Of a stretch of 64,000 nt of DNA, positions 7,599 to 56,285 are shown piece after piece; within the stretch, counting starts at the first letter, position 1; the number at the start of each line of letters is the position of its first letter. The notes beneath the pieces are model-generated. The model did not search any database. It saw only the letters and a list, made by a program, of their open reading frames with translations, and was not told where the DNA came from. This DNA comes from a virus (taxonomy: Duplodnaviria; Caudoviricetes). Made by a program: the position numbers and the translations under genes. The stretch is from positions 5,364-69,363 of IMG/VR virus record IMGVR_UViG_3300009678_000061; one strand, written 5' to 3'.

Positions 7599-10205
7599 CT
7601 ACTCCTCAATAATCGTCTTGATCCGGCCCTCGCCATCCCGCTCCACGGTCCTGACAATGCGGCCCTTGGGTTCAGCCTTTGGTTGTTCAATCTGGACCTT
7701 GATCGCATCCTTGGGAATCGTGACCTGCGCGGCAGCGGCTTCGACCTCGACGCGAATCGCATCCTTGGGGAATTCCACCGTGACCGGAGCGTTGACCACC
7801 GGCGGCTTTTGATCTGCCAATGCCGACGCCAGTTCCTTGCTCGCGCTGGTGATTGCTTCCGCTACACCTGTTAGGGGTTGCATGCTTTCCTCGATGGTCT
7901 TGACGATGGCTGCCGTGTTGATGGCATTCGTGCCGGCTGCGTACACGACCGTATCGTGCAGCTCCTCCAGGAACTCCGCAGGCCGAAGGGTTTCCATCAG
8001 CCGGCCGGCCGCATCGGTGTTCTCATGCAGCTCGCGAAGAATCGCACGGGCTTCGTCGGTCGTGCGGGCGGATTCGAGCGCGGCGGAGACGGCGGCGGCG
8101 CGGGGGGTTGTATGAAGATCGATTTCTAGCAGGCTCACGTCGCCCTCAAACGGCTCTGCATCCTCCACCGATTCGATTACGTCAGCTTCCGTCGAAAGGA
8201 ACTGCGCGAGCTTTTTGGCGGTCACCTTCAGCGGTTTATGGCCTTTCTTCTGGACCGTATAGAACGTGGCCCCGGCTGAAAGGTCAACGTGAGGCTTGCC
8301 GATCTTGTAGCCACGCTCGCCCAGCAGGTCTGTCACCTGATCGATATTGAGCTTTGCCTGTTTGCTGACGAAGCGGTATTTTTTGCCTTGATAAACGCCG
8401 GTCGAACCCCTCTCGGTTCCTGCGTCGGAACGGGAATGTGCATTGACCTGGCTCTTTCCAGTTGGACACGGCCCCGGCTTCCCACCTTCACCACCGCACT
8501 CCAGAAGCGCCTCCACCTTCCCCAGCCGCTCCGCAACCGCTTCCATTGCCCGCAATGCCGCGCCATCGCTCTGAGGCGCAGGCTGCGCCGGGACGTTGGT
8601 GACTTGCGAGATATTCGCCGGCTGACCTTGCGCGGCCCCCAGCGGCGGCTCAGGCTTATCGCCATCCTTTTGGATGTTCTCAAGCTCAGCGTCGAAGTCC
8701 AACCCCGCTTCCGTGGCCGCCGTGCGCTTGCTCTTGATGCCCAAGCCAACCTCAATTGCCGACGTGCGGGCCTGCTCTTCCTTGTTGCGTGTGGCGACCT
8801 CAGGCGGCGTCACGATCACATCCACCAGCGCTTCGATCTGCTCCCAAGGCATGTCGAACCGCGCGAAGTAGCCGGAGTCGAAGGCGATGCGGATTGCTTT
8901 CCAGCACAGCGAGGAGAAACCGGGCTTCAACTCGCGCTGGTCAGACTCACGGCCCTTGACGAAGGGCGACTCGGCAACCAATGCGGACGCCAAGTTATTG
9001 TTGCTGTAGTCGCCGGAAATCATCCCTTCGGCCATTTGCCAGACGCTGCCGAGATACCTCAGCAGCGCTTGAATCACATTGATGAACGCGGGCGCGCGCT
9101 CGCTGCCCATCGGGCCAGCCAGGTACTCCTGCCCCTGGTTGATATCCAAGATCGTTCCCGGCGCGAAGTTCTGGATGTATCGCGTGCGGCTGCCGCCTTG
9201 GGGGAGATTCTGCGTCCGCGTCTCGTAAGCGTTGGTGGCCCGTAGCCCGCTGATTTGCGCAGCGGTCGCGCCTGTGGCGTGCTGCCGAATGAACGCGATA
9301 GCCGCTTGCACTGCGGTCCCGCGGCCTGTGTTGCGCAGGACTTTCTCGGCATCTTGCAGCCATGCGATTACGGGATAGAACTCGCTATATCCCCGCTTCA
9401 CACCGTAAGGCGCGTTGGCTTTGAAATGCTCCATACGCGCGGCTGGCACGTAATCCCAGTCGGCATAGGCAGCCGGGTCTGGTGCAACGTGATAACCCAA
9501 CGTGTCTCCAGGGCGGTCCTTTCTGGTGTGCACGCCCATCGCCCAGCAAGATACAAACTCCGTGTCGATGTGCAGATGTGTTTCCAGGTCATTGCTGAAG
9601 CCCTGTGGATCGCGAACGTGGTCTGGCTCGCGAATCAAGATTCTCGTCTGCCAGCCTTCCGGTTCAAGTTGCACAAAGCACTCGCCATCCGTTCGCCGGC
9701 GATCGTGGATTTCGTTTTCCAGCAAACACCCTGAGTCGCCAAACAGGGCATCGATCACGTTTTGGACGGCCCCGACTAATCCCTTAGGAGGCTCGGCATC
9801 ATTTGCCGGTTGGACCTTATAGGTGAATCCGCCGCTGATCGTATAGTTGCGCAGGTTCTTGAGGATGTTGATGCCGGCCGGGAACATCGTGGTCAGAATA
9901 CGGGCCGATCCTCGGATGAAAGCCAAGTCTTGCTCCGTCTCAAACACCGGCCGATTCTTGCCGTCTTGTCGATCGTCGGGCCGCGTCATTGGTACAGGCT
10001 GCTGTCCGTAGCTCGTTCCCCAGCCCGGCGTGTCGTGCATGAACTCGCGCGGATCGATCAGCTCGCACGCCTCCATAACGGGGACTGGCAAGTCCGCCAT
10101 CCGCTGGGCTTCCGCGAGGTACGATTCGAGCTGCATTGTTTCCAATTGCAACCGTGCGGATTCGTGGCGGGTGCGGAGGTCTTCGATGGGGAGAGTGTCG
10201 ATCAT
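7599..10205 (-). CDS. Portal protein (lambda-like family) with a long C-terminal extension
   Basis: Follows TerL. PYGVKRGYSEF and ISGDYSNNNLASAL motifs. Start moved to MIDTLP (ATGA overlap). Confidence 0.85.
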   Translation of the reverse strand: MIDTLPIEDLRTRHESARLQLETMQLESYLAEAQRMADLPVPVMEACELIDPREFMHDTPGWGTSYGQQPVPMTRPDDRQDGKNRPVFETEQDLAFIRGSARILTTMFPAGINILKNLRNYTISGGFTYKVQPANDAEPPKGLVGAVQNVIDALFGDSGCLLENEIHDRRRTDGECFVQLEPEGWQTRILIREPDHVRDPQGFSNDLETHLHIDTEFVSCWAMGVHTRKDRPGDTLGYHVAPDPAAYADWDYVPAARMEHFKANAPYGVKRGYSEFYPVIAWLQDAEKVLRNTGRGTAVQAAIAFIRQHATGATAAQISGLRATNAYETRTQNLPQGGSRTRYIQNFAPGTILDINQGQEYLAGPMGSERAPAFINVIQALLRYLGSVWQMAEGMISGDYSNNNLASALVAESPFVKGRESDQRELKPGFSSLCWKAIRIAFDSGYFARFDMPWEQIEALVDVIVTPPEVATRNKEEQARTSAIEVGLGIKSKRTAATEAGLDFDAELENIQKDGDKPEPPLGAAQGQPANISQVTNVPAQPAPQSDGAALRAMEAVAERLGKVEALLECGGEGGKPGPCPTGKSQVNAHSRSDAGTERGSTGVYQGKKYRFVSKQAKLNIDQVTDLLGERGYKIGKPHVDLSAGATFYTVQKKGHKPLKVTAKKLAQFLSTEADVIESVEDAEPFEGDVSLLEIDLHTTPRAAAVSAALESARTTDEARAILRELHENTDAAGRLMETLRPAEFLEELHDTVVYAAGTNAINTAAIVKTIEESMQPLTGVAEAITSASKELASALADQKPPVVNAPVTVEFPKDAIRVEVEAAAAQVTIPKDAIKVQIEQPKAEPKGRIVRTVERDGEGRIKTIIEE

Positions 10206-51242: not shown

Positions 51243-53268
51243 TCGCAGATCCTTATAACAATCGGTTCAGACTCCAGCTCGTCGACCAGCAGCACCGACA
51301 GCGGATAGCCGGTGTCGATGATGCTCAGCACGTCCAGGGCGGGTACGAGCCGCTCGAGCTCGGCGTCTGCCAGGGCGTTGATGCGGGCGTTGTATTCGGA
51401 TTCGGTCATCAGTTTCGTCCAGCCCTGCGACTTGCCAGCGAGCATTGCAGGTGCTCAATTGCCCGCTCCATTGCGTACTCTTGCAATTCAGGTTCGGGGA
51501 CATTGACCCAGAGCGAACAATCGTCCACGCCTTCACGCTGAATAATTCCGACCGTAACCAGCGCGACGCAGTTATCCGCCGCTACCTCGTGGGTAACTCC
51601 AATCGACTCTTGCACGTCGTCCGGTATGTCGTCCATTTCGTTCATGCGTTTCGCTCCCTCACGCACCCAAGCCAGGTAATCGCCGCGACGCAAAGGGCAC
51701 AGAATCCGATAGCGGAGAGCATGGTCATACTCCTTAAATTGCCGTCTCTCCGGCTGTCACGCTTCCCGCTCGCGAGTCGGGGTTATGGTCTTGCGTCCAC
51801 CTGTGCCCATTGCCATACGCTCAATACCATGCTCGGCATAACGCCAGTGGTTCCCCGCACGGGCCGGACGGGGTATGAATGACGCCTCAAGACGCCTTTT
51901 GTTTCACAATCTCCTCAATCGCCAGAGTGATCCTCGCTCGTGTGGTCGGGTCGCTCTTGAGCGCGTTGACTTGCTTTTCCATTTCGCCGCCGAAACGGTC
52001 AATCAGCAACTTCGCCATCTTGGAGCGAACCGCGATACGGACCTCATCGCGAAAACCTTGGTCGCTCACGCACGATGCAATCGCCTCTTCAAGCAGCCCA
52101 CGGAACTCGTTCGTCTTGGCGGCAACCACATCAGACAGAACCTTGTGAAGCGGACTGTGATACTGGTTTTCCAGCATTGAACTCACGCCCTTGCGAATGC
52201 CGTCCCGCACGGCGTTCAGAATCTCTTGATCGAAGTCCATTTGATTCCCTTTCGTGTTCATTGCTCCAAAGCCTCCCGAACCTGCCGCAGCGTCAGCCCG
52301 CAAGCCGCCGCCAATTGCGATTCCCGGCCCGTGCCGATGCCAAGCCGTGGCCTGCCCAGCCAGGGCTGCGATCTTGTCCGCAGGTTCGCACGTGGAATCC
52401 TCAGCAGCTTGCCGTCACGCTGCACTGTTCCGTAACAGGCTGTGTATCGCACGAGCCGGCCGTTGCGGGCCGGGTTCGTGCGGTCGTGGGCAAGTTGGCC
52501 GAGTTTCATGGGGTCGTCCGCGCACAGCTTGTGCAATAGGGTCCGGTCGGTTCCTTGCTCGGCTCGTGAACCCAAACGACGATCATCCGGCTTCGTCCGC
52601 AGCGCACGCATTCGCTAGCAAAGCGTTGGTTGGCAATACGCTGGCTGGCGAGGTAGAAGTCCACGGCGTTTCCTAATTCTTCGCAGGTCGATTCAATGTC
52701 GTCGTCGTCGGCTTTGATCCAGGCAACAGCGGCGTCGATGACTCGTTGGCCGCTCATGCGCGCTGGTTCCGTCGGCGCAGGCGAGTCTTGCCTGGCTTGC
52801 GTCCGCCTTCCGGCAACGACGTGGCTCGCATGCGCTTGCCGCCAGCCTGAACACGCACGCCGCGACCCGGCTTTCCTTCAACGCTATCCGAGAAGATCGG
52901 CGCGTTGCTCACCAAGTAATAGCCCTTGCCTTTGACTTCGCAGGTTGTGAATTTTCCAAGTAGCATCCGGTTCTCCTTGTCGTTATTGCACGTCACGCAT
53001 CCACCCATCCCTTCCCCGGCACGCTCACGTCCCCGCACGCTTCCCGGATACGGGCGGACAGCGCCACCATGCCGACCACGCCGATGTGATGGTCCCGGTA
53101 CATTTGCATGGCCGCGCGCAGGGCTTCGGCTTTGTCGGCGCGGCGGAAGCGGACGTAATAGTTCCACTCGTGAATCTGATGATGCGCGGTCAGGATTTCG
53201 TTGCCGTCTCCGTCGCCTCCGAAACGGGGGCCGATTGGCAGGCACGGTGCGTCGATGGTTTGGGGCAT
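51239..53268 (-). other. Small early hypotheticals (51239-51409; 51409-51645; 51887-52240; 52258-52509; 52506-52757; 52754-52966; 52993-53268)
   Basis: Mostly coupled ORFs. Confidence 0.5.
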
Positions 53269-53273
53269 GGCTT

Positions 53274-53338
53274 GTCTTGTCGAATCGAGTCGAATTGAGT
53301 TGAGTCGAGTGATGCCCTGTCACTGCGCGTCAAGTCTT
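53274..53338. repeat. 5-bp periodic tract (13 pentamers, (G/A)TYNN)
   Basis: gtctt gtcga atcga gtcga attga gttga gtcga gtgat gccct gtcac tgcgc gtcaa gtctt. Confidence 0.85.
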
Positions 53339-53567
53339 GCTCCCGTTGGTCATCAGCTTGATAACCGCGTCACTTTCAACGGCGTGAAAGTTCGGATGCC
53401 CCGACAACTTCTTCCGGGCAGCGCCGCCGCTGGCCGTGCGAATCAGTCCGGCGAGGCACAAATTCAGGTTGTGCTCAACGCGCTGTTCGTCGCTGAGTTT
53501 CTTCGGTTACGCGCCGGCCGAACATCAGGTCGCTAACGCCAGTGATCTTGAAAGTGCACAAAAGCAT
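53330..53567 (-). pseudogene. Broken ORF between pentamer tracts (two reading frames offset by +1)
   Basis: MLLCTFKITGVSDLMFGRRVTE (RBS AGGAG, start 53567), then in another frame KKLSDEQRVEHNLNL...TNGSKT* (stop 53330). Confidence 0.6.
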
Positions 53568-53582
53568 TTGGTTCTCCTGGGA

Positions 53583-54055
53583 AAAATCTAGTCTCGCCCC
53601 GTTGAGTCACGTTGGGTTAAGTTCGGTCTAGTTCGGGCTGGTCCTGCCGTGTTACGTCCAGTCGTGTCGCGCTCTTGTTTGCCTCTGCTTTGATCCTGTC
53701 TAGTCGCGCCGCGTCGAATCGAATCCAGTTGGGACTTGTGACGTTCGGTCGGCCGAGTCGCGTGCTGTCCAGTCTTGTTCGTGAATCCTCTGCTGTGATC
53801 CGGTCTCGTCAGGTTGTGTTACGTGCTGTCATGAGTCTGGCCTCGTCGAATCGCGTCGTGTCATTTCTTTGATCCTCTGCTGTGATCCCGTCTCGCCAAG
53901 TCGTGTTGAGCCTAGTCGCGTCCAGTGTTGTGATGCCAAGTCCAGCCTAGTCTCGTTCGTGGCCTCCACTGTGTTCTGGTCTCGCCTTGCCGAGTCGATT
54001 CGTGACGAATCGCGTGTCGCCTTGCCATGTCCTTGCGCGTCGTGTCTTGCCGCGT
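53583..54055. repeat. Array of five ~87-105 bp units of 5-bp-periodic sequence separated by a conserved box CCTCTGCT(G/T)TGATCC
   Basis: Boxes at 53682, 53787, 53874 and a degenerate one at 53963; G at every fifth base from 53591 to 53671. Confidence 0.9.
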
Positions 54056-54244
54056 TAAATGCCAGCCCTTGCAATCAGGGCATTTGTAGAATTGCAGCCG
54101 CAGAGAATCGGCAGCACTGATCGCTTCGCCTTCCGATGCGTAACGCACCTTCGGCGTGCATCCCTTAGCGCGGCGGCGGGCTTTGATGCCAACGGCTCGC
54201 CGCTGCTTTGCTCGCGCTGCTCGTGCGTGTGGAGTGTGCTTCAT
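53912..54244 (-). CDS. Small basic protein (YKCPDCKGWHLT) whose frame reads on into the array
   Basis: The Y..E.EA...Y.C..C.GWHL pattern ends near 54055. Confidence 0.55.
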   Translation of the reverse strand: MKHTPHARAARAKQRRAVGIKARRRAKGCTPKVRYASEGEAISAADSLRLQFYKCPDCKGWHLTRQDTTRKDMARRHAIRHESTRQGETRTQWRPRTRLGWTWHHNTGRD

Positions 54245-54331
54245 GCGAATGCCGCGCGGCCCAGCCGCGGAAAATTTTGCGGGCTTCGTGCTCAGAGGCG
54301 AGCTAGAAGCCAGTGCTCATCACACTGGCGA

Positions 54332-54360
54332 TTTATACACTTGCGTAAGTAGCAAGTCAA
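54332..54360 (-). promoter_or_regulatory. Strong leftward early promoter with operator
   Basis: TTGACT-17-TATAAA; palindrome ACTTGC-N7-GCAAGT at 54339-54357. Confidence 0.75.
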
Positions 54361-54364
54361 GCGA

Positions 54365-54667
54365 TTAGGCAGGAATTTTTTCCGGGGCGGAAAGTAAAGC
54401 CTCTGGCGTGGTTTCCAGGGCTTCCGCCAAGAGGGCGAGCGTGCTGATAATCGGCACGCGCTCGCCTTGCTCAAGAGCGCTGATGTAGGGGAAGTGTACC
54501 CGCTCTGTATTCCGATCCTTGCGCGGCTTGTGCCGCTCGTTGCGCTCTCGCAACTCATTCAGCCGGGCGGCAAGGTCGGTTTGGGTAAGCCCCAATTCCT
54601 TGCGACGCGCACGAAGATTCTGCCTGAAGAGTTCATTCAATTCGGATGGTTGCACATCGCCTTCCAT
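54365..54667 (-). CDS. XRE-family HTH repressor or Cro-like protein
   Basis: LRARRKELGLTQTDLA...YISALEQGERVP.ISTL..LAEAL. Confidence 0.85.
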   Translation of the reverse strand: MEGDVQPSELNELFRQNLRARRKELGLTQTDLAARLNELRERNERHKPRKDRNTERVHFPYISALEQGERVPIISTLALLAEALETTPEALLSAPEKIPA

Positions 54668-54673
54668 GCAGGT

Positions 54674-54702
54674 ACTATATACACCTGCGTAAATTGTTGC
54701 AA
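54674..54702 (-). promoter_or_regulatory. Promoter of the HTH gene (near-leaderless)
   Basis: TTGCAA-17-TATAGT, 6 nt before the ATG; shares TATACACYTGCGTAA with 54334-54348. Confidence 0.65.
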
Positions 54703-54760
54703 TTCATAAAATCGTCCTCAACACACGAACCAAACAATCGCAGCCCCGCTTCCCACACTC

Positions 54761-55009
54761 ATGCGTCAAAAAGGTGAAAAGATGATTCGCTACTTCCAAT
54801 CGCTTGAAGGCCATGAGTCGCCAGTTGCCAGCGCCGAGATTCGCGAAGACACGGTGACTCTCCGCCTCGGTGAGCAGGCCGTTTCCGTTCGCTCACGAGA
54901 CGAAGCAGAAGCGTTGTGCGAGGCGGCACGCTATGCATTTTCGGTGTTCTCCGGTTCGTCCAGAGACGAAGTAGCGGAACTGTTGCCTCCGGATTCCAAG
55001 ATCGCTTGA
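54761..55009 (+). CDS. Hypothetical protein, divergent from the HTH gene
   Basis: Protein-like ORF on the + strand. Confidence 0.5.
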   Translation: MRQKGEKMIRYFQSLEGHESPVASAEIREDTVTLRLGEQAVSVRSRDEAEALCEAARYAFSVFSGSSRDEVAELLPPDSKIA

Positions 55010-55221
55010 GCCACACAGAGCACGGCCCGCACGAGCAGGTCATCTTCGTTCGGACGGCCGCGAAGTTTTTGCCGCACAGACTCGATTTGTTCAGCAGCAT
55101 TTTTCGACATTGATTAGACCTCACTGAAAACGGACTGACGGCATCGACGCCCAACCCCGGCCGGACGGCCGCGGCTTCTCCCGCTTCTGCGGTGGGCGTA
55201 TTGTTTTTCATAAATCACCAG

Positions 55222-55295
55222 TGGGCGATACTGGACTCGGACCAGTGACCTTCGGCTTGTCGAGCCGACGCTCTAACCAACTGAGCTAATCGCCC
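55222..55295 (-). tRNA. tRNA-Val(GAC), 74 nt, no encoded CCA, non-canonical C33 and C55
   Basis: Full cloverleaf: GGGCGAT/ATCGCCC, GCTC/GAGC, TCGGC-TCGACAA-GCCGA, ACTGG-TCCGAGT-CCAGT. Confidence 0.88.
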
Positions 55296-55442
55296 TATGG
55301 ACTCGCGGCTTGTCGAGCTGCGAACCCCTAGAACGGGTTAGAATTTGCCGGTCGCAAAGGAAATCGGATAGCGCGGCTGCGGTATCGAAGGACCGCTGTA
55401 CGGAGTGCCGATCAAAACTCTTGCCGGGCAAGGGCGACACTC

Positions 55443-56285
55443 ATGCTGCTATCCACGCTGTTGCGGGATTATCTTTCCGCGCGCGAAGTCTCGCGCGAGT
55501 ACGGAAAATCTCTAACCGCCGTGGTGCTGGAATTCGGCCGCTGGCTCAAGCGTTCCGCACGGGTGAGCGACTTCAGCGATGCGAAGGTCAACGCCTGGCT
55601 GACAGCCCTCGTGTCGGCCAACGGGCGCAGCAGATCCACGCTTGCCAACAAGCGCCGGCAGTTGCTCACGCTCTGGCGTTATGCGTGGCAGGAAGAGCAC
55701 GCCAAGCAGCCGCCGCGAAAGGTGCGGCGCATCAGCGTTCCGGCGCCGTCGCCGGCAGCCTGGGACACCCCGGAGCTTCGCCGGGTCATTGCTGCGGCGC
55801 GCTGCGTGCCGGGCAAGTTCCGCCGAACGAAAATCGAGCGGGCGAAATTCTGGGAGGCGTTCGTGCGGGTCGGCTACAGCAGCGGATTAAGACTTGGCGA
55901 TTTGGTCCGCCTGCGATGGGAGCAGATTCGCGCCAACGGCATCGCCGTGGTGAGCCAGCACAAGACCGGGAACCTCGTGCTATGTCCGCTGGATGCCTCT
56001 GCGCTGGCGGCGCTCGAGGGAATCCGCTTGCCGCATCGGTCGCGAGTATTCGGCGACTGCTTGAACCGGCGCCGGACCATGAAGGGCTTTATCGCAATCG
56101 TGCGCGCCGCCGGGTTGACGGGCGGGAGCAAGATGCTCAGGCGAAGTGGGGCAACAGCAGTGGCGATTGCGTCGCCGGGCTGGGAGTCGGCGTTCCTGGG
56201 GCACGTCGATCAACGCACGGCGCGGCACTACGTGGATCGCGCCATGTGCCAGCAGCGGAAGCCCACGCCGCCGCCGATTGATTGA
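55443..56285 (+). CDS. int: Tyrosine recombinase / integrase
   Basis: GLRLGDL (Arg), QHKTG (Lys), KMLRRS (the HxLR His is Lys), FLGH, RHY; N-terminal SAM-like domain. Confidence 0.88.
   Translation: MLLSTLLRDYLSAREVSREYGKSLTAVVLEFGRWLKRSARVSDFSDAKVNAWLTALVSANGRSRSTLANKRRQLLTLWRYAWQEEHAKQPPRKVRRISVPAPSPAAWDTPELRRVIAAARCVPGKFRRTKIERAKFWEAFVRVGYSSGLRLGDLVRLRWEQIRANGIAVVSQHKTGNLVLCPLDASALAALEGIRLPHRSRVFGDCLNRRRTMKGFIAIVRAAGLTGGSKMLRRSGATAVAIASPGWESAFLGHVDQRTARHYVDRAMCQQRKPTPPPID

What the first reader, a model, noticed from the sequence alone, without database searches (positions are those of the whole stretch)
53274..54055. Array of 5-bp-periodic variable tracts punctuated by a conserved box: a possible undescribed repeat system
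Seen: from 53591 to 53671, 17 consecutive pentamers start with G, 13 have T second and all have a pyrimidine third (GTYNN), while positions 4-5 vary freely. Similar tracts fill four more units. Units end in a conserved box CCTCTGCT(G/T)TGATCC (53682, 53787, 53874, degenerate at 53963; spacings 105, 87, 89), usually followed by GTCTCG. A sixth tract (53274-53338) lies on the far side of the adjacent broken gene. Period 5 is not a codon multiple, so the constraint acts on DNA or RNA, and about two pentamers per helical turn puts the fixed bases on two faces. No two units share the variable positions, so this is not simple slippage. The array sits just downstream of the strong promoter at 54332-54360 and is probably transcribed as (NNRAC)n-GGAUCACAGCAGAGG units. 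Hypotheses: processed guide or decoy RNAs with a constant handle, a protein-polymerisation or nucleoid scaffold, or a recombination-driven diversity cassette linked to the enclosed gene.
Basis: partly seen in the sequence, partly recalled or inferred. Interest (0 to 1): 0.85.

Follow-up and report, generated by a model that had tools for sequence, protein, structure and literature searches.

The report
Effector-less VIPR guide-RNA array in phage
The 5-base-periodic tracts are real and are most likely the guide-RNA genes (vrRNAs) of a phage VIPR system, a CRISPR-like RNA-guided DNA-silencing system first described in two 2026 preprints; this copy uses an unusual fixed triplet, and the protein gene that should read the guides survives at best as a broken stump.

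Summary
Six tracts (90 pentamers) show a lag-5 signal about 7 SD above the rest of the 69-kb phage genome. Three exact boxes and one degenerate box punctuate them.

A pattern scan of IMG/VR found about 32 other viral contigs with the same kind of variable tracts, fixed GTC/GTY plus two free bases. In 26 of them the tracts lie beside one protein family, phrog_4652. I modelled it (pLDDT 94.5) and it has a Cas7/Csm3-type RAMP fold. This matches the VIPR systems of two 2026 bioRxiv preprints: one Vipr RAMP protomer binds each 5-nt repeat, and the two free bases pair with target DNA.

The window differs from the published case in three ways:
- The fixed triplet is RAC on the minus strand (GYY on plus), not GGY.
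- The tail is a short, unstructured 15-nt box.
- No intact vipr exists anywhere in the genome. Only a frameshifted 79-codon stump sits where vipr should be, and its resemblance to Vipr is weak.

No targets were found. The RNA strand (minus favoured) and present-day function are inferred, not shown. This scan has noted GG-type VIPR arrays in two other phages.

The parts
54332..54361 (-). Sigma-70-like promoter TTGACT-17 nt-TATAAA that would drive the small Zn-ribbon-like gene and the array
   Evidence: Read directly from the sequence. The consensus scan did not list it because the second hexamer ends in A. That scan found only a similar minus-strand site at 54702-54674 and no plus-strand promoter in 52900-54800.
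53912..54244 (-). Small ORF with a Zn-ribbon-like motif (KCPDCKGWH), no family match. It has no stop codon before 53912, so it reads 47 codons into unit A
   Evidence: ORF list; Pfam found no family for the 63-aa core; no IMG/VR relatives.
53963..54055 (-). vrRNA-like unit A: tract 53979-54055 (about 16 pentamers) plus a degenerate box at 53963-53977
53874..53959 (-). vrRNA-like unit B: tract 53890-53959 (14 pentamers) plus an exact box at 53874-53888
53787..53869 (-). vrRNA-like unit C: tract 53803-53869 (13 pentamers with a 2-nt register slip) plus an exact box at 53787-53801
53682..53781 (-). vrRNA-like unit D: tract 53698-53781 (16 pentamers with a 4-nt register slip) plus an exact box at 53682-53696
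53591..53675 (-). vrRNA-like unit E: 17 regular pentamers. It has no box; on the minus strand the ribosome-binding site and ATG of the stump gene follow it
53330..53567 (-). Frameshifted 79-codon gene in the position where vipr sits in related loci; probably a truncated vipr remnant
   Evidence: Its first 30 codons are the best hit in the whole genome to my Vipr HMM (E 0.24). hhalign aligns 19 columns (E 0.002, probability 14%). The best Smith-Waterman z-score is 4.9. The 58-aa second frame has no homolog among 1.84 billion representatives, and BLASTP against the L134 Vipr gives E 0.32. The 252 bp between tracts is too short for a Vipr of about 190 aa.
53274..53338 (-). vrRNA-like unit F: a solitary tract of about 13 pentamers ending 6 nt before the ATG of the next gene. 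It contains a 10-bp tandem duplication
52993..53268 (-). 91-aa gene of unknown function directly after tract F
   Evidence: ORF list; no significant Pfam family; no IMG/VR relatives.
54365..54667 (-). XRE-type HTH regulator upstream of the array operon
   Evidence: Pfam HTH_3 at 9e-10.

Best explanation
The tracts are an array of six VIPR-type guide-RNA genes (vrRNAs). In the published VIPR mechanism, one Vipr (RAMP, Cas7-like) protomer binds each 5-nt repeat and forms a filament. The protein holds the three fixed bases. The two free bases of successive repeats pair with double-stranded target DNA, skipping every third base, and this silences a competing phage or satellite.

Here the units are most likely transcribed on the minus strand from the early promoter, as (NN-RAC)13-17 followed by GAGAC-N-GGAUCACAGCAGAGG as a short 3' tail. 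The fixed triplet is RAC (GAC 43%, AAC 17%, GGC 16%) instead of GGY.

The phage has no intact vipr gene. A frameshifted, truncated stump lies between tract F and the main array. The locus is therefore effector-less: either a decaying relic, or a guide set that works only with a Vipr supplied by another element.

Shown: the periodicity, the boxes, the link between this tract type and a RAMP protein in other phages, and the absence of an intact Vipr here. Inferred: transcription, the RNA strand, the identity of the stump, and any present function.
For: 1. The periodicity and boxes are real and unique in the genome.

2. A scan of IMG/VR for (GTYNN)7GTY hit more than 120 contigs. About 32 of them carry variable tracts like these, often in arrays punctuated by conserved boxes, for example L116:7889-8460.

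3. In 26 of those loci a protein of one family lies next to the tracts: 21 were found by BLAST clustering and 5 more by HMM. The family is phrog_4652.

4. Its AlphaFold model (pLDDT 94.5) matches Cas7/Csm3 subunits of type VII and type III complexes (Foldseek E 1e-8 to 1e-5, probability 1.0). It carries a C-terminal G-rich loop.

5. A homolog in phage DSL-LC04 has canonical GGY/NN repeats just upstream, on its own strand.

6. The preprints describe exactly this pairing of a RAMP with 9-16 pentanucleotide repeats plus an invariant 3' tail, flanking vipr in phages.

7. Unit size here (87-105 nt, 13-17 repeats) fits that description.

8. Four things favour the minus strand. The flanking genes, the promoter and the stump are all on minus. 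The conserved last pentamer and box lie on the minus-sense 3' side, as in loci L174, L143 and L116. In L133 a tRNA-like spacer reads sensibly only on the vipr strand and gives AAC/NN, so a purine at position 1 is precedented. Arrays sit tightly downstream of vipr in gene sense in all loci.

9. No ORF of 110 aa or more in the genome resembles Vipr (hhalign maximum probability 4.6%; phrog_4652 absent).
Against: - The fixed triplet is not GGY, and in the SUSP1 system GGY>GAY abolished silencing (preprint). Membership therefore rests on related loci, not on motif identity.
- The stump's similarity to Vipr is weak.
- On the plus strand the motif reads G(89%)-Y-Y. This fits the published logic of an invariant G1 and a pyrimidine pocket at position 3 better than R-R-C does, and it resembles the GUY-type loci L161 and L179. 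The strand call is therefore uncertain.
- The box has no predicted structure, unlike the published structured tail.
- No target was found with the 1-nt-skip rule, either in the phage's own genome or with four 8-NN seeds in IMG/VR.
- No relative of this phage or of the box was found, so conservation of this particular locus cannot be shown.
- The tracts are more degenerate than in loci with an intact vipr (43% GTC, against more than 95% there).
Confidence: 0.75

Rival explanations
1. It is the same VIPR family, but the RNA comes from the plus strand as (GUY-NN)n followed by CCUCUGCUGUGAUCC. The array would then be antisense to the early operon and to the stump gene.
For: Plus-strand position 1 is G in 89-100% of pentamers, and positions 2 and 3 are pyrimidines. 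This matches the structural rule of a specific G1 contact plus a purine-excluding pocket at position 3. It also matches the composition of the GUY-type loci L161, L179 and L151, where the tracts are on the vipr strand. In plus sense four of five array units are also followed by the box.
Against: No plus-strand promoter was found. All neighbouring genes and the stump are on minus. In every related locus the array sits tightly in gene sense with vipr. The conserved terminal pentamer and box would lie at the 5' end, whereas the published tail is 3'. L133 shows that A at position 1 occurs.
Confidence: 0.2
2. The array is functional without its own effector. Either its guides load onto a Vipr made by a co-resident prophage or helper, or they act as an RNA decoy that soaks up a rival's Vipr, much as RNA anti-CRISPRs soak up Cas proteins.
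For: Three boxes are still identical, and the units keep their length and periodicity. The array lies behind a strong early promoter. The preprint reports satellites that carry their own vrRNAs. An earlier agent of this scan reported another effector-less array in a different phage (I did not check this).
Against: The repeats are markedly degenerate compared with arrays next to an intact vipr. No targets were found. No partner Vipr is known for this motif in an identified host.
Confidence: 0.25
3. The tracts are double-stranded DNA iterons for a polymerising DNA-binding protein, acting as an origin, a partition site or a packaging site.
For: The motif is nearly palindromic (GTC/GAC), and its orientation relative to the RAMP gene flips among related loci. 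This could suggest that strand does not matter.
Against: The linked protein is a RAMP, an RNA-binding fold. The published mechanism for its homologs is RNA-based, with small-RNA sequencing and cryo-EM evidence. Arrays are packed in gene sense, with tRNA-like or box punctuation typical of processed RNAs. No replication or partition gene is adjacent.
Confidence: 0.04
4. The tracts encode a repetitive peptide, because a period of 5 nt gives a 5-aa repeat in any frame. Alternatively they are a TRAP-like attenuator site (triplet plus 2-nt spacer) for an RNA-binding ring protein.
For: The Zn-ribbon ORF runs 47 codons into unit A. TRAP sites have the same 3+2 spacing (my own knowledge).
Against: No ORF spans the array; stops occur in all frames, and the boxes carry TGA on plus. 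There are no protein homologs. TRAP sites have 9-11 repeats of GAG/UAG in one leader, not six units of 13-17 repeats with handles. The linked protein family is a RAMP.
Confidence: 0.02

Closest known systems
VIPR systems (Vipr RAMP plus vrRNAs), type II of Escherichia phage SUSP1 and the P. fulva prophage; bioRxiv 10.64898/2026.04.26.720920 and 10.64898/2026.04.26.720927
   Same: Both are phage-borne. Both have arrays of about 100-nt units, each made of 9-17 pentanucleotide repeats with three fixed and two hypervariable bases, followed by a constant segment. In both, arrays flank the position of the RAMP gene. Related loci with this tract type carry a Cas7-like RAMP.
   Different: The fixed triplet is RAC (or GYY on the other strand), not GGY. 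The constant segment is a 15-nt unstructured box, not a structured tail of about 40 nt. There is no intact vipr and no recognisable vap. No target was found.
Phage DSL-LC04 (OR003939.1) locus: Vipr homolog WJZ48083.1 with an upstream GGY/NN tract
   Same: Its protein is homologous (33% identity) to the RAMP family linked to GAC/GUY tracts. A pentamer tract lies directly beside the gene, on its strand.
   Different: It has the canonical GGY motif and an intact gene. In the record that gene is annotated as an HTH regulator.
IMG/VR loci with GAC/NN, AAC/NN or GUY/NN arrays next to phrog_4652 (for example L116, L143, L174, L133, L179, L161)
   Same: They have the same tract type (GTC/GTY on one strand), box-punctuated arrays, a conserved last pentamer next to the box, and an early-operon setting.
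   Different: Their repeats are more than 95% regular and an intact RAMP gene is present. Their boxes differ in sequence, and none matches the window's box.
CRISPR arrays with Cas7-family backbone proteins
   Same: Both have constant segments alternating with variable guide segments. The linked protein shares the RAMP fold that binds guide RNA at a fixed period.
   Different: The period is 5 nt with two pairing bases per protomer, not 6 nt with five. The 'spacer' is itself periodic. There are no cas1/cas2 genes and no acquisition machinery.
RNA anti-CRISPRs (phage solitary repeat units that sequester Cas proteins)
   Same: Both are effector-less guide-like RNA genes carried by a phage. This is a possible analogy for a decoy role.
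   Different: There is no evidence here of any partner protein. This is an analogy only, recalled from my own knowledge.

Membership tests
VIPR system | Tandem pentanucleotide repeats, three conserved and two hypervariable positions, about 9-16 per RNA | tested here: met
   There are six units of 13-17 pentamers. Positions 1-3 are constrained and positions 4-5 use all 16 dinucleotides.
VIPR system | The conserved trinucleotide is GGY, or one of the alternatives named in the preprint (NNNGG, YNNNG, NNNNG) | tested here: not met
   The triplet is RAC on minus and GYY on plus; GGC makes up only 16% on minus. Read loosely, plus-strand G-Y-N-N-N could fit YNNNG. I could not see figure S17, which shows the related consensus motifs.
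VIPR system | An invariant 3' tail after each repeat tract | tested here: inconclusive
   A conserved 15-nt box follows four of five array units. It is short and has no predicted structure. Which side is 3' depends on the strand.
VIPR system | An adjacent vipr gene (single-RRM RAMP with G-loop and thumb) flanked by the RNA regions | tested here: not met
   There is no intact Vipr in the 69-kb genome. Only a 79-codon frameshifted stump lies in the expected place, with weak N-terminal similarity.
VIPR system | The same tract type is linked to a RAMP protein in other genomes | tested here: met
   26 of about 32 variable-tract viral loci encode phrog_4652 beside the tracts. The fold matches Cas7/Csm3.
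VIPR system | Carried by a phage or provirus | tested here: met
   The record is a 69-kb virus contig with direct terminal repeats as IMG/VR classes it. An integrase, a tRNA and an XRE regulator lie beside the locus.
VIPR system | The NN bases match natural targets under the 1-nt-skip rule, with no self-targets | tested here: inconclusive
   There are no self-targets above shuffled controls. Four 8-NN seeds in IMG/VR gave only chance hits with no extension. An approximate (80% or better) search of whole collections was not possible with these tools.
VIPR system | vrRNAs are expressed and co-purify with Vipr | not testable with these tools
   This needs small-RNA sequencing and a pull-down.
VIPR system | An accessory vap gene | tested here: not met
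   No window protein resembles the neighbours of Vipr in the related loci. The small neighbouring genes have no family match.
CRISPR array | Identical direct repeats of 25-40 nt separating non-periodic spacers, with cas genes nearby | tested here: not met
   The boxes are 15 nt, the 'spacers' are 5-nt periodic, and no cas genes are present.

The most novel reading that the evidence does not exclude
The window belongs to a VIPR class, not spelled out in the preprints' text, whose RAMP reads a purine-A-C (or G-U-Y) triplet instead of GGY. Its effector-less array is kept as a working part: either guides that borrow a rival element's Vipr, or an RNA decoy that disarms it (an 'anti-VIPR').
Probability: 0.15. 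Interest if true: 0.65.

Novelty: new variant of a known kind. Interest (0 to 1): 0.45.

Why it matters
VIPR is a months-old discovery, proposed as the ancestor of the CRISPR RAMPs. Its published rule is a GGY triplet, and mutating that triplet kills the SUSP1 system.

The window, together with about 30 viral contigs found from it, shows natural arrays whose fixed triplet is GAC, AAC or GUY, linked to homologous RAMPs. So the middle base, and sometimes the first base, of the protein-held triplet has changed among clades. These loci give natural protein-RNA pairs for working out how Vipr specificity is set, and could provide orthogonal programmable silencers.

The window itself adds a second kind of case. 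It is a guide array whose effector gene is gone, which bears on how such loci decay or are used in trans during conflicts between phages.

For annotation, long 'non-coding' gaps with 5-nt periodicity beside small early genes in phages can now be named.

Tried and rejected
**CsrA sponge.** I dropped this idea because the periodic tracts carry no GGA motifs and the linked protein family is a RAMP.

**TRAP-like attenuator and DNA iterons.** I considered both before the related loci were found. They are kept only as low-probability rivals.

**Coding repeat.** No ORF spans the array.

**Rfam.** Nothing was found in 52000-56000 except the tRNA. Six related loci gave no ribozyme or tRNA hit at E 0.1 or better.

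**Search for the box.**
- In IMG/VR the exact box gave 97 single hits, none with local periodicity that looked related.
- The box plus the first pentamer gave 0 hits in genome contigs and 0 in metagenome contigs.

**Search for relatives of this phage.**
- blastn of the region against the phage collection: no match.
- The two neighbouring small proteins in IMG/VR: no relatives.
- The integrase in genome contigs: only one distant Pseudomonas hit.
- The host therefore remains unknown.

**Second half of the stump gene.** A HMMER search of the 58-aa frame against 1.84 billion representatives gave 0 hits.

**Target search.**
- Own genome under skip rules 0-3: nothing above shuffled controls.
- Four 8-NN seeds in IMG/VR: only chance hits, with no extension.

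**Using base variation to fix the RNA strand.** My first tally was biased, because the detector accepted C or T at position 3 but only G at position 1. I therefore do not treat it as decisive.

Full report
**1. The observation**

The window is 64 kb of a 69,363-bp single-contig virus record with 59% G+C.

- 17 consecutive pentamers at 53591-53675 have G first (17/17), T second (13/17) and a pyrimidine third (17/17).
- The box CCTCTGCTKTGATCC is exact at 53682, 53787 and 53874 and occurs nowhere else in the window.
- A four-mismatch copy lies at 53963.
- Each box is followed by one base and then GTCTCG (GTCTAG after the first box).
- A sixth tract at 53274-53338 lies beyond a small frameshifted gene.

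Lag-5 autocorrelation is 0.47-0.57 against about 0.2 at other lags. Across the whole genome, 100-nt windows outside the array have a lag-5 excess of -0.007 ± 0.036 (maximum 0.114). Inside the array it reaches 0.26.

In a manual register the six units hold 90 pentamers. Position 1 is G in 89%. Position 2 is T in 77% and C in 18%. Position 3 is C in 72% and T in 20%. Positions 4-5 use all 16 dinucleotides.

No ORF spans the array, and Rfam finds only the nearby tRNA.

**2. Setting**

All neighbouring genes are on the minus strand:
- an XRE-type regulator (54365-54667);
- a small Zn-ribbon-like ORF (54244 downwards), which lacks a stop codon until 53912;
- the array;
- a 79-codon gene split over two frames (53567-53330);
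- tract F;
- a 91-aa gene.

A TTGACT-17-TATAAA promoter lies at 54361-54332 on the minus strand (read). The consensus scan found no plus-strand promoter. A tRNA (55222-55295) and a tyrosine integrase (55443-56285) follow.

**3. Related sequences**

Direct searches for this locus failed. The exact box, the flanking small proteins and blastn of the region found nothing related in IMG/VR, in the phage collection, or in genome or metagenome contigs.

A pattern scan for (GTYNN)7GTY in IMG/VR did find relatives of the tract type. It returned more than 120 contigs. Many are plain microsatellites, but about 32 carry variable tracts of the same kind. These are often arrays of several tracts separated by a locally conserved box. 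The clearest is L116:7889-8460, with four tracts of 22-26 GTCNN separated by an identical 38-nt box.

**4. The linked protein**

I clustered the ORFs around these tracts. One family was present in 21 loci, and an HMM built from it found five more.
- The family is phrog_4652, function unknown, with no Pfam match.
- It has an invariant C-terminal G..G...R.....G motif.
- An AlphaFold model built from a 20-sequence alignment reached pLDDT 94.5.
- Foldseek matched it to Cas7/Csm3 backbone subunits of type VII and type III CRISPR complexes (E 1e-8 to 1e-5).
- A homolog in the isolate phage DSL-LC04, annotated as an HTH regulator, has a run of GGTnn/GGCnn pentamers just upstream on its own strand.

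**5. What is known**

A full-text search led to two 2026 bioRxiv preprints: 10.64898/2026.04.26.720920 and 10.64898/2026.04.26.720927. They describe VIPR systems as follows:
- A phage-borne, single-RRM RAMP called Vipr works with vrRNAs of 9-16 YNNGG (GGY/NN) repeats followed by an invariant 3' tail. The vrRNAs are encoded in the long intergenic regions that flank vipr.
- One Vipr protomer binds each repeat, forming a right-handed filament.
- G1 is read by a His and a G-loop Asp. G2 is read by a thumb Arg and a G-loop Trp. Y3 sits in a pocket that excludes purines.
- The NN bases pair with double-stranded DNA, skipping every third base, and silence competing phages or satellites.
- Seven types exist, with 'GGY/NN or a related consensus' (named alternatives are NNNGG, YNNNG and NNNNG). 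Array types include staggered and hammerhead-interspersed.

The tract-plus-RAMP loci I found fit this description. The window's units fit it in size and plan (87-105 nt, 13-17 repeats, constant box).

**6. How the window differs**

(a) *Motif.* On the strand of the RAMP gene, the related loci read GAC/NN (12 loci), GUY/NN (10), AAC/NN (L133) or GGY/NN (DSL-LC04). The GAC and GUY orientations are interleaved on the protein tree. The window reads RAC on minus (GAC 43%, AAC 17%, GGC 16%) or G-Y-Y on plus. In SUSP1, GGY>GAY abolished silencing (figure legend). These are therefore clade-specific variants. I could not see the preprint's figure S17 to learn whether they are already shown there.

(b) *Tail.* The 15-nt box has no predicted fold on either strand.

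(c) *Effector.* No intact Vipr is present.
- phrog_4652 finds nothing in the genome.
- My HMM's best hit among all six-frame fragments is the first 30 codons of the split gene between the tracts, at E 0.24.
- hhalign of the family against every ORF of 110 aa or more gives at most 4.6% probability.
- The stump's own similarity is weak: hhalign aligns 19 columns at E 0.002, the best Smith-Waterman z-score is 4.9, and BLASTP of the second frame gives E 0.32. That second frame has no homolog among 1.84 billion representatives.
- The 252 bp between the tracts cannot hold a 190-aa gene.
- I put the stump being a vipr remnant at about 60%.

(d) *Regularity.* The repeats are far more degenerate than in loci with an intact gene.

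**7. Which strand is the RNA?**

For the minus strand:
- The gene context, the promoter and the stump are all on minus.
- The conserved last pentamer (GAGAC) and the box lie at the minus-sense 3' end, as in L174, L143 and L116.
- Arrays in all related loci sit tightly in gene sense.
- In L133 a tRNA-like spacer with D-arm and T-arm motifs reads sensibly only on the vipr strand, and it gives AAC/NN. Position 1 can therefore be A. Rfam support for that spacer is weak.

For the plus strand:
- G is the most invariant base and the other two fixed positions are pyrimidines. This fits the structural logic better and resembles the GUY-type loci.

I favour the minus strand at about 70%. The predicted double-stranded target is the same for either strand, because NNx read in reverse complement is again NNx.

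**8. Targets**

No self-target exceeds shuffled controls under skip rules 0-3. Four 8-NN seeds from units E, B and A gave only chance hits in IMG/VR, with no extension. Approximate searches of whole collections were not possible with these tools.

**9. Verdict**

The finding is real and is best read as a VIPR-type vrRNA array. It is a variant in its fixed triplet, and in this phage it lacks its effector. It may be a decaying relic, or a guide or decoy set that depends on a Vipr supplied in trans.

The system had, however, been described a few months earlier.

Earlier agents of this scan reported GG-type VIPR arrays in two other phages, one of them also effector-less. I did not check those reports.

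Noticed in passing
L133:900-1900 (IMGVR_UViG_3300028883_000018): The pentamer tracts are separated six times by an element of about 55 nt. On the RAMP-gene strand it reads like a cut-down tRNA: an acceptor-like stem, GGUUAGAGC, and a GCAGG-UUCGAUU-CCUGC T-arm. This suggests RNase P/Z processing of the array. The preprint text does not name this architecture. Rfam gives only weak hits.
   Followed up: partly
25 Vipr-like loci, for example L174, L143, L116 (GAC); L179, L161, L151 (GUY); L133 (AAC); L218 (GGY): The fixed triplet on the RAMP-gene strand differs among homologous Viprs, and the GAC and GUY classes are interleaved on the protein tree. GAC and GUC are reverse complements, so inverting an array would convert one class into the other while keeping the same double-stranded targets.
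   Followed up: partly
L099:2505-3077 and L165:987-1550: The two GUU-type Viprs of the compact clade have GLL where all the others have GxG at the start of the G-rich loop. This may co-vary with the repeat motif, but it rests on only two sequences.
   Followed up: no
window 53912-54244 (-): The Zn-ribbon-like ORF has no stop codon after its CPDCKGWHLT core. It reads 47 more codons through vrRNA-like unit A, the degenerate box and into unit B.
   Followed up: no
window 53279-53310: Tract F contains a 10-bp tandem duplication (GTCGAATCGA, 3.2 copies), so its variable dinucleotide is GA six times running. This looks like recent slippage, which may be how such tracts grow.
   Followed up: no
L218:2809-3426 (phage DSL-LC04, OR003939.1, WJZ48083.1): A RAMP (Vipr) homolog with a canonical GGY/NN tract upstream is annotated in GenBank as 'helix-turn-helix transcriptional regulator'.
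   Followed up: partly
window 54674-54702 and 54332-54361 (-): Two similar minus-strand promoter-like sites, TTGCAA-17-TATAGT and TTGACT-17-TATAAA, stand before the XRE gene and before the array operon. Both have a ..TACGCA(A/G)GTG.. spacer, which may be a shared operator.
   Followed up: no
L116:7889-8460 and 9947-10075: The 38-nt box between tracts carries AAGGAGG on the gene strand inside a CAG..CTG hairpin. The same TGTTTATC..AAGGAGG element precedes a real start codon at about 9935, so tails and ribosome-binding sites appear to share sequence in this clade.
   Followed up: no
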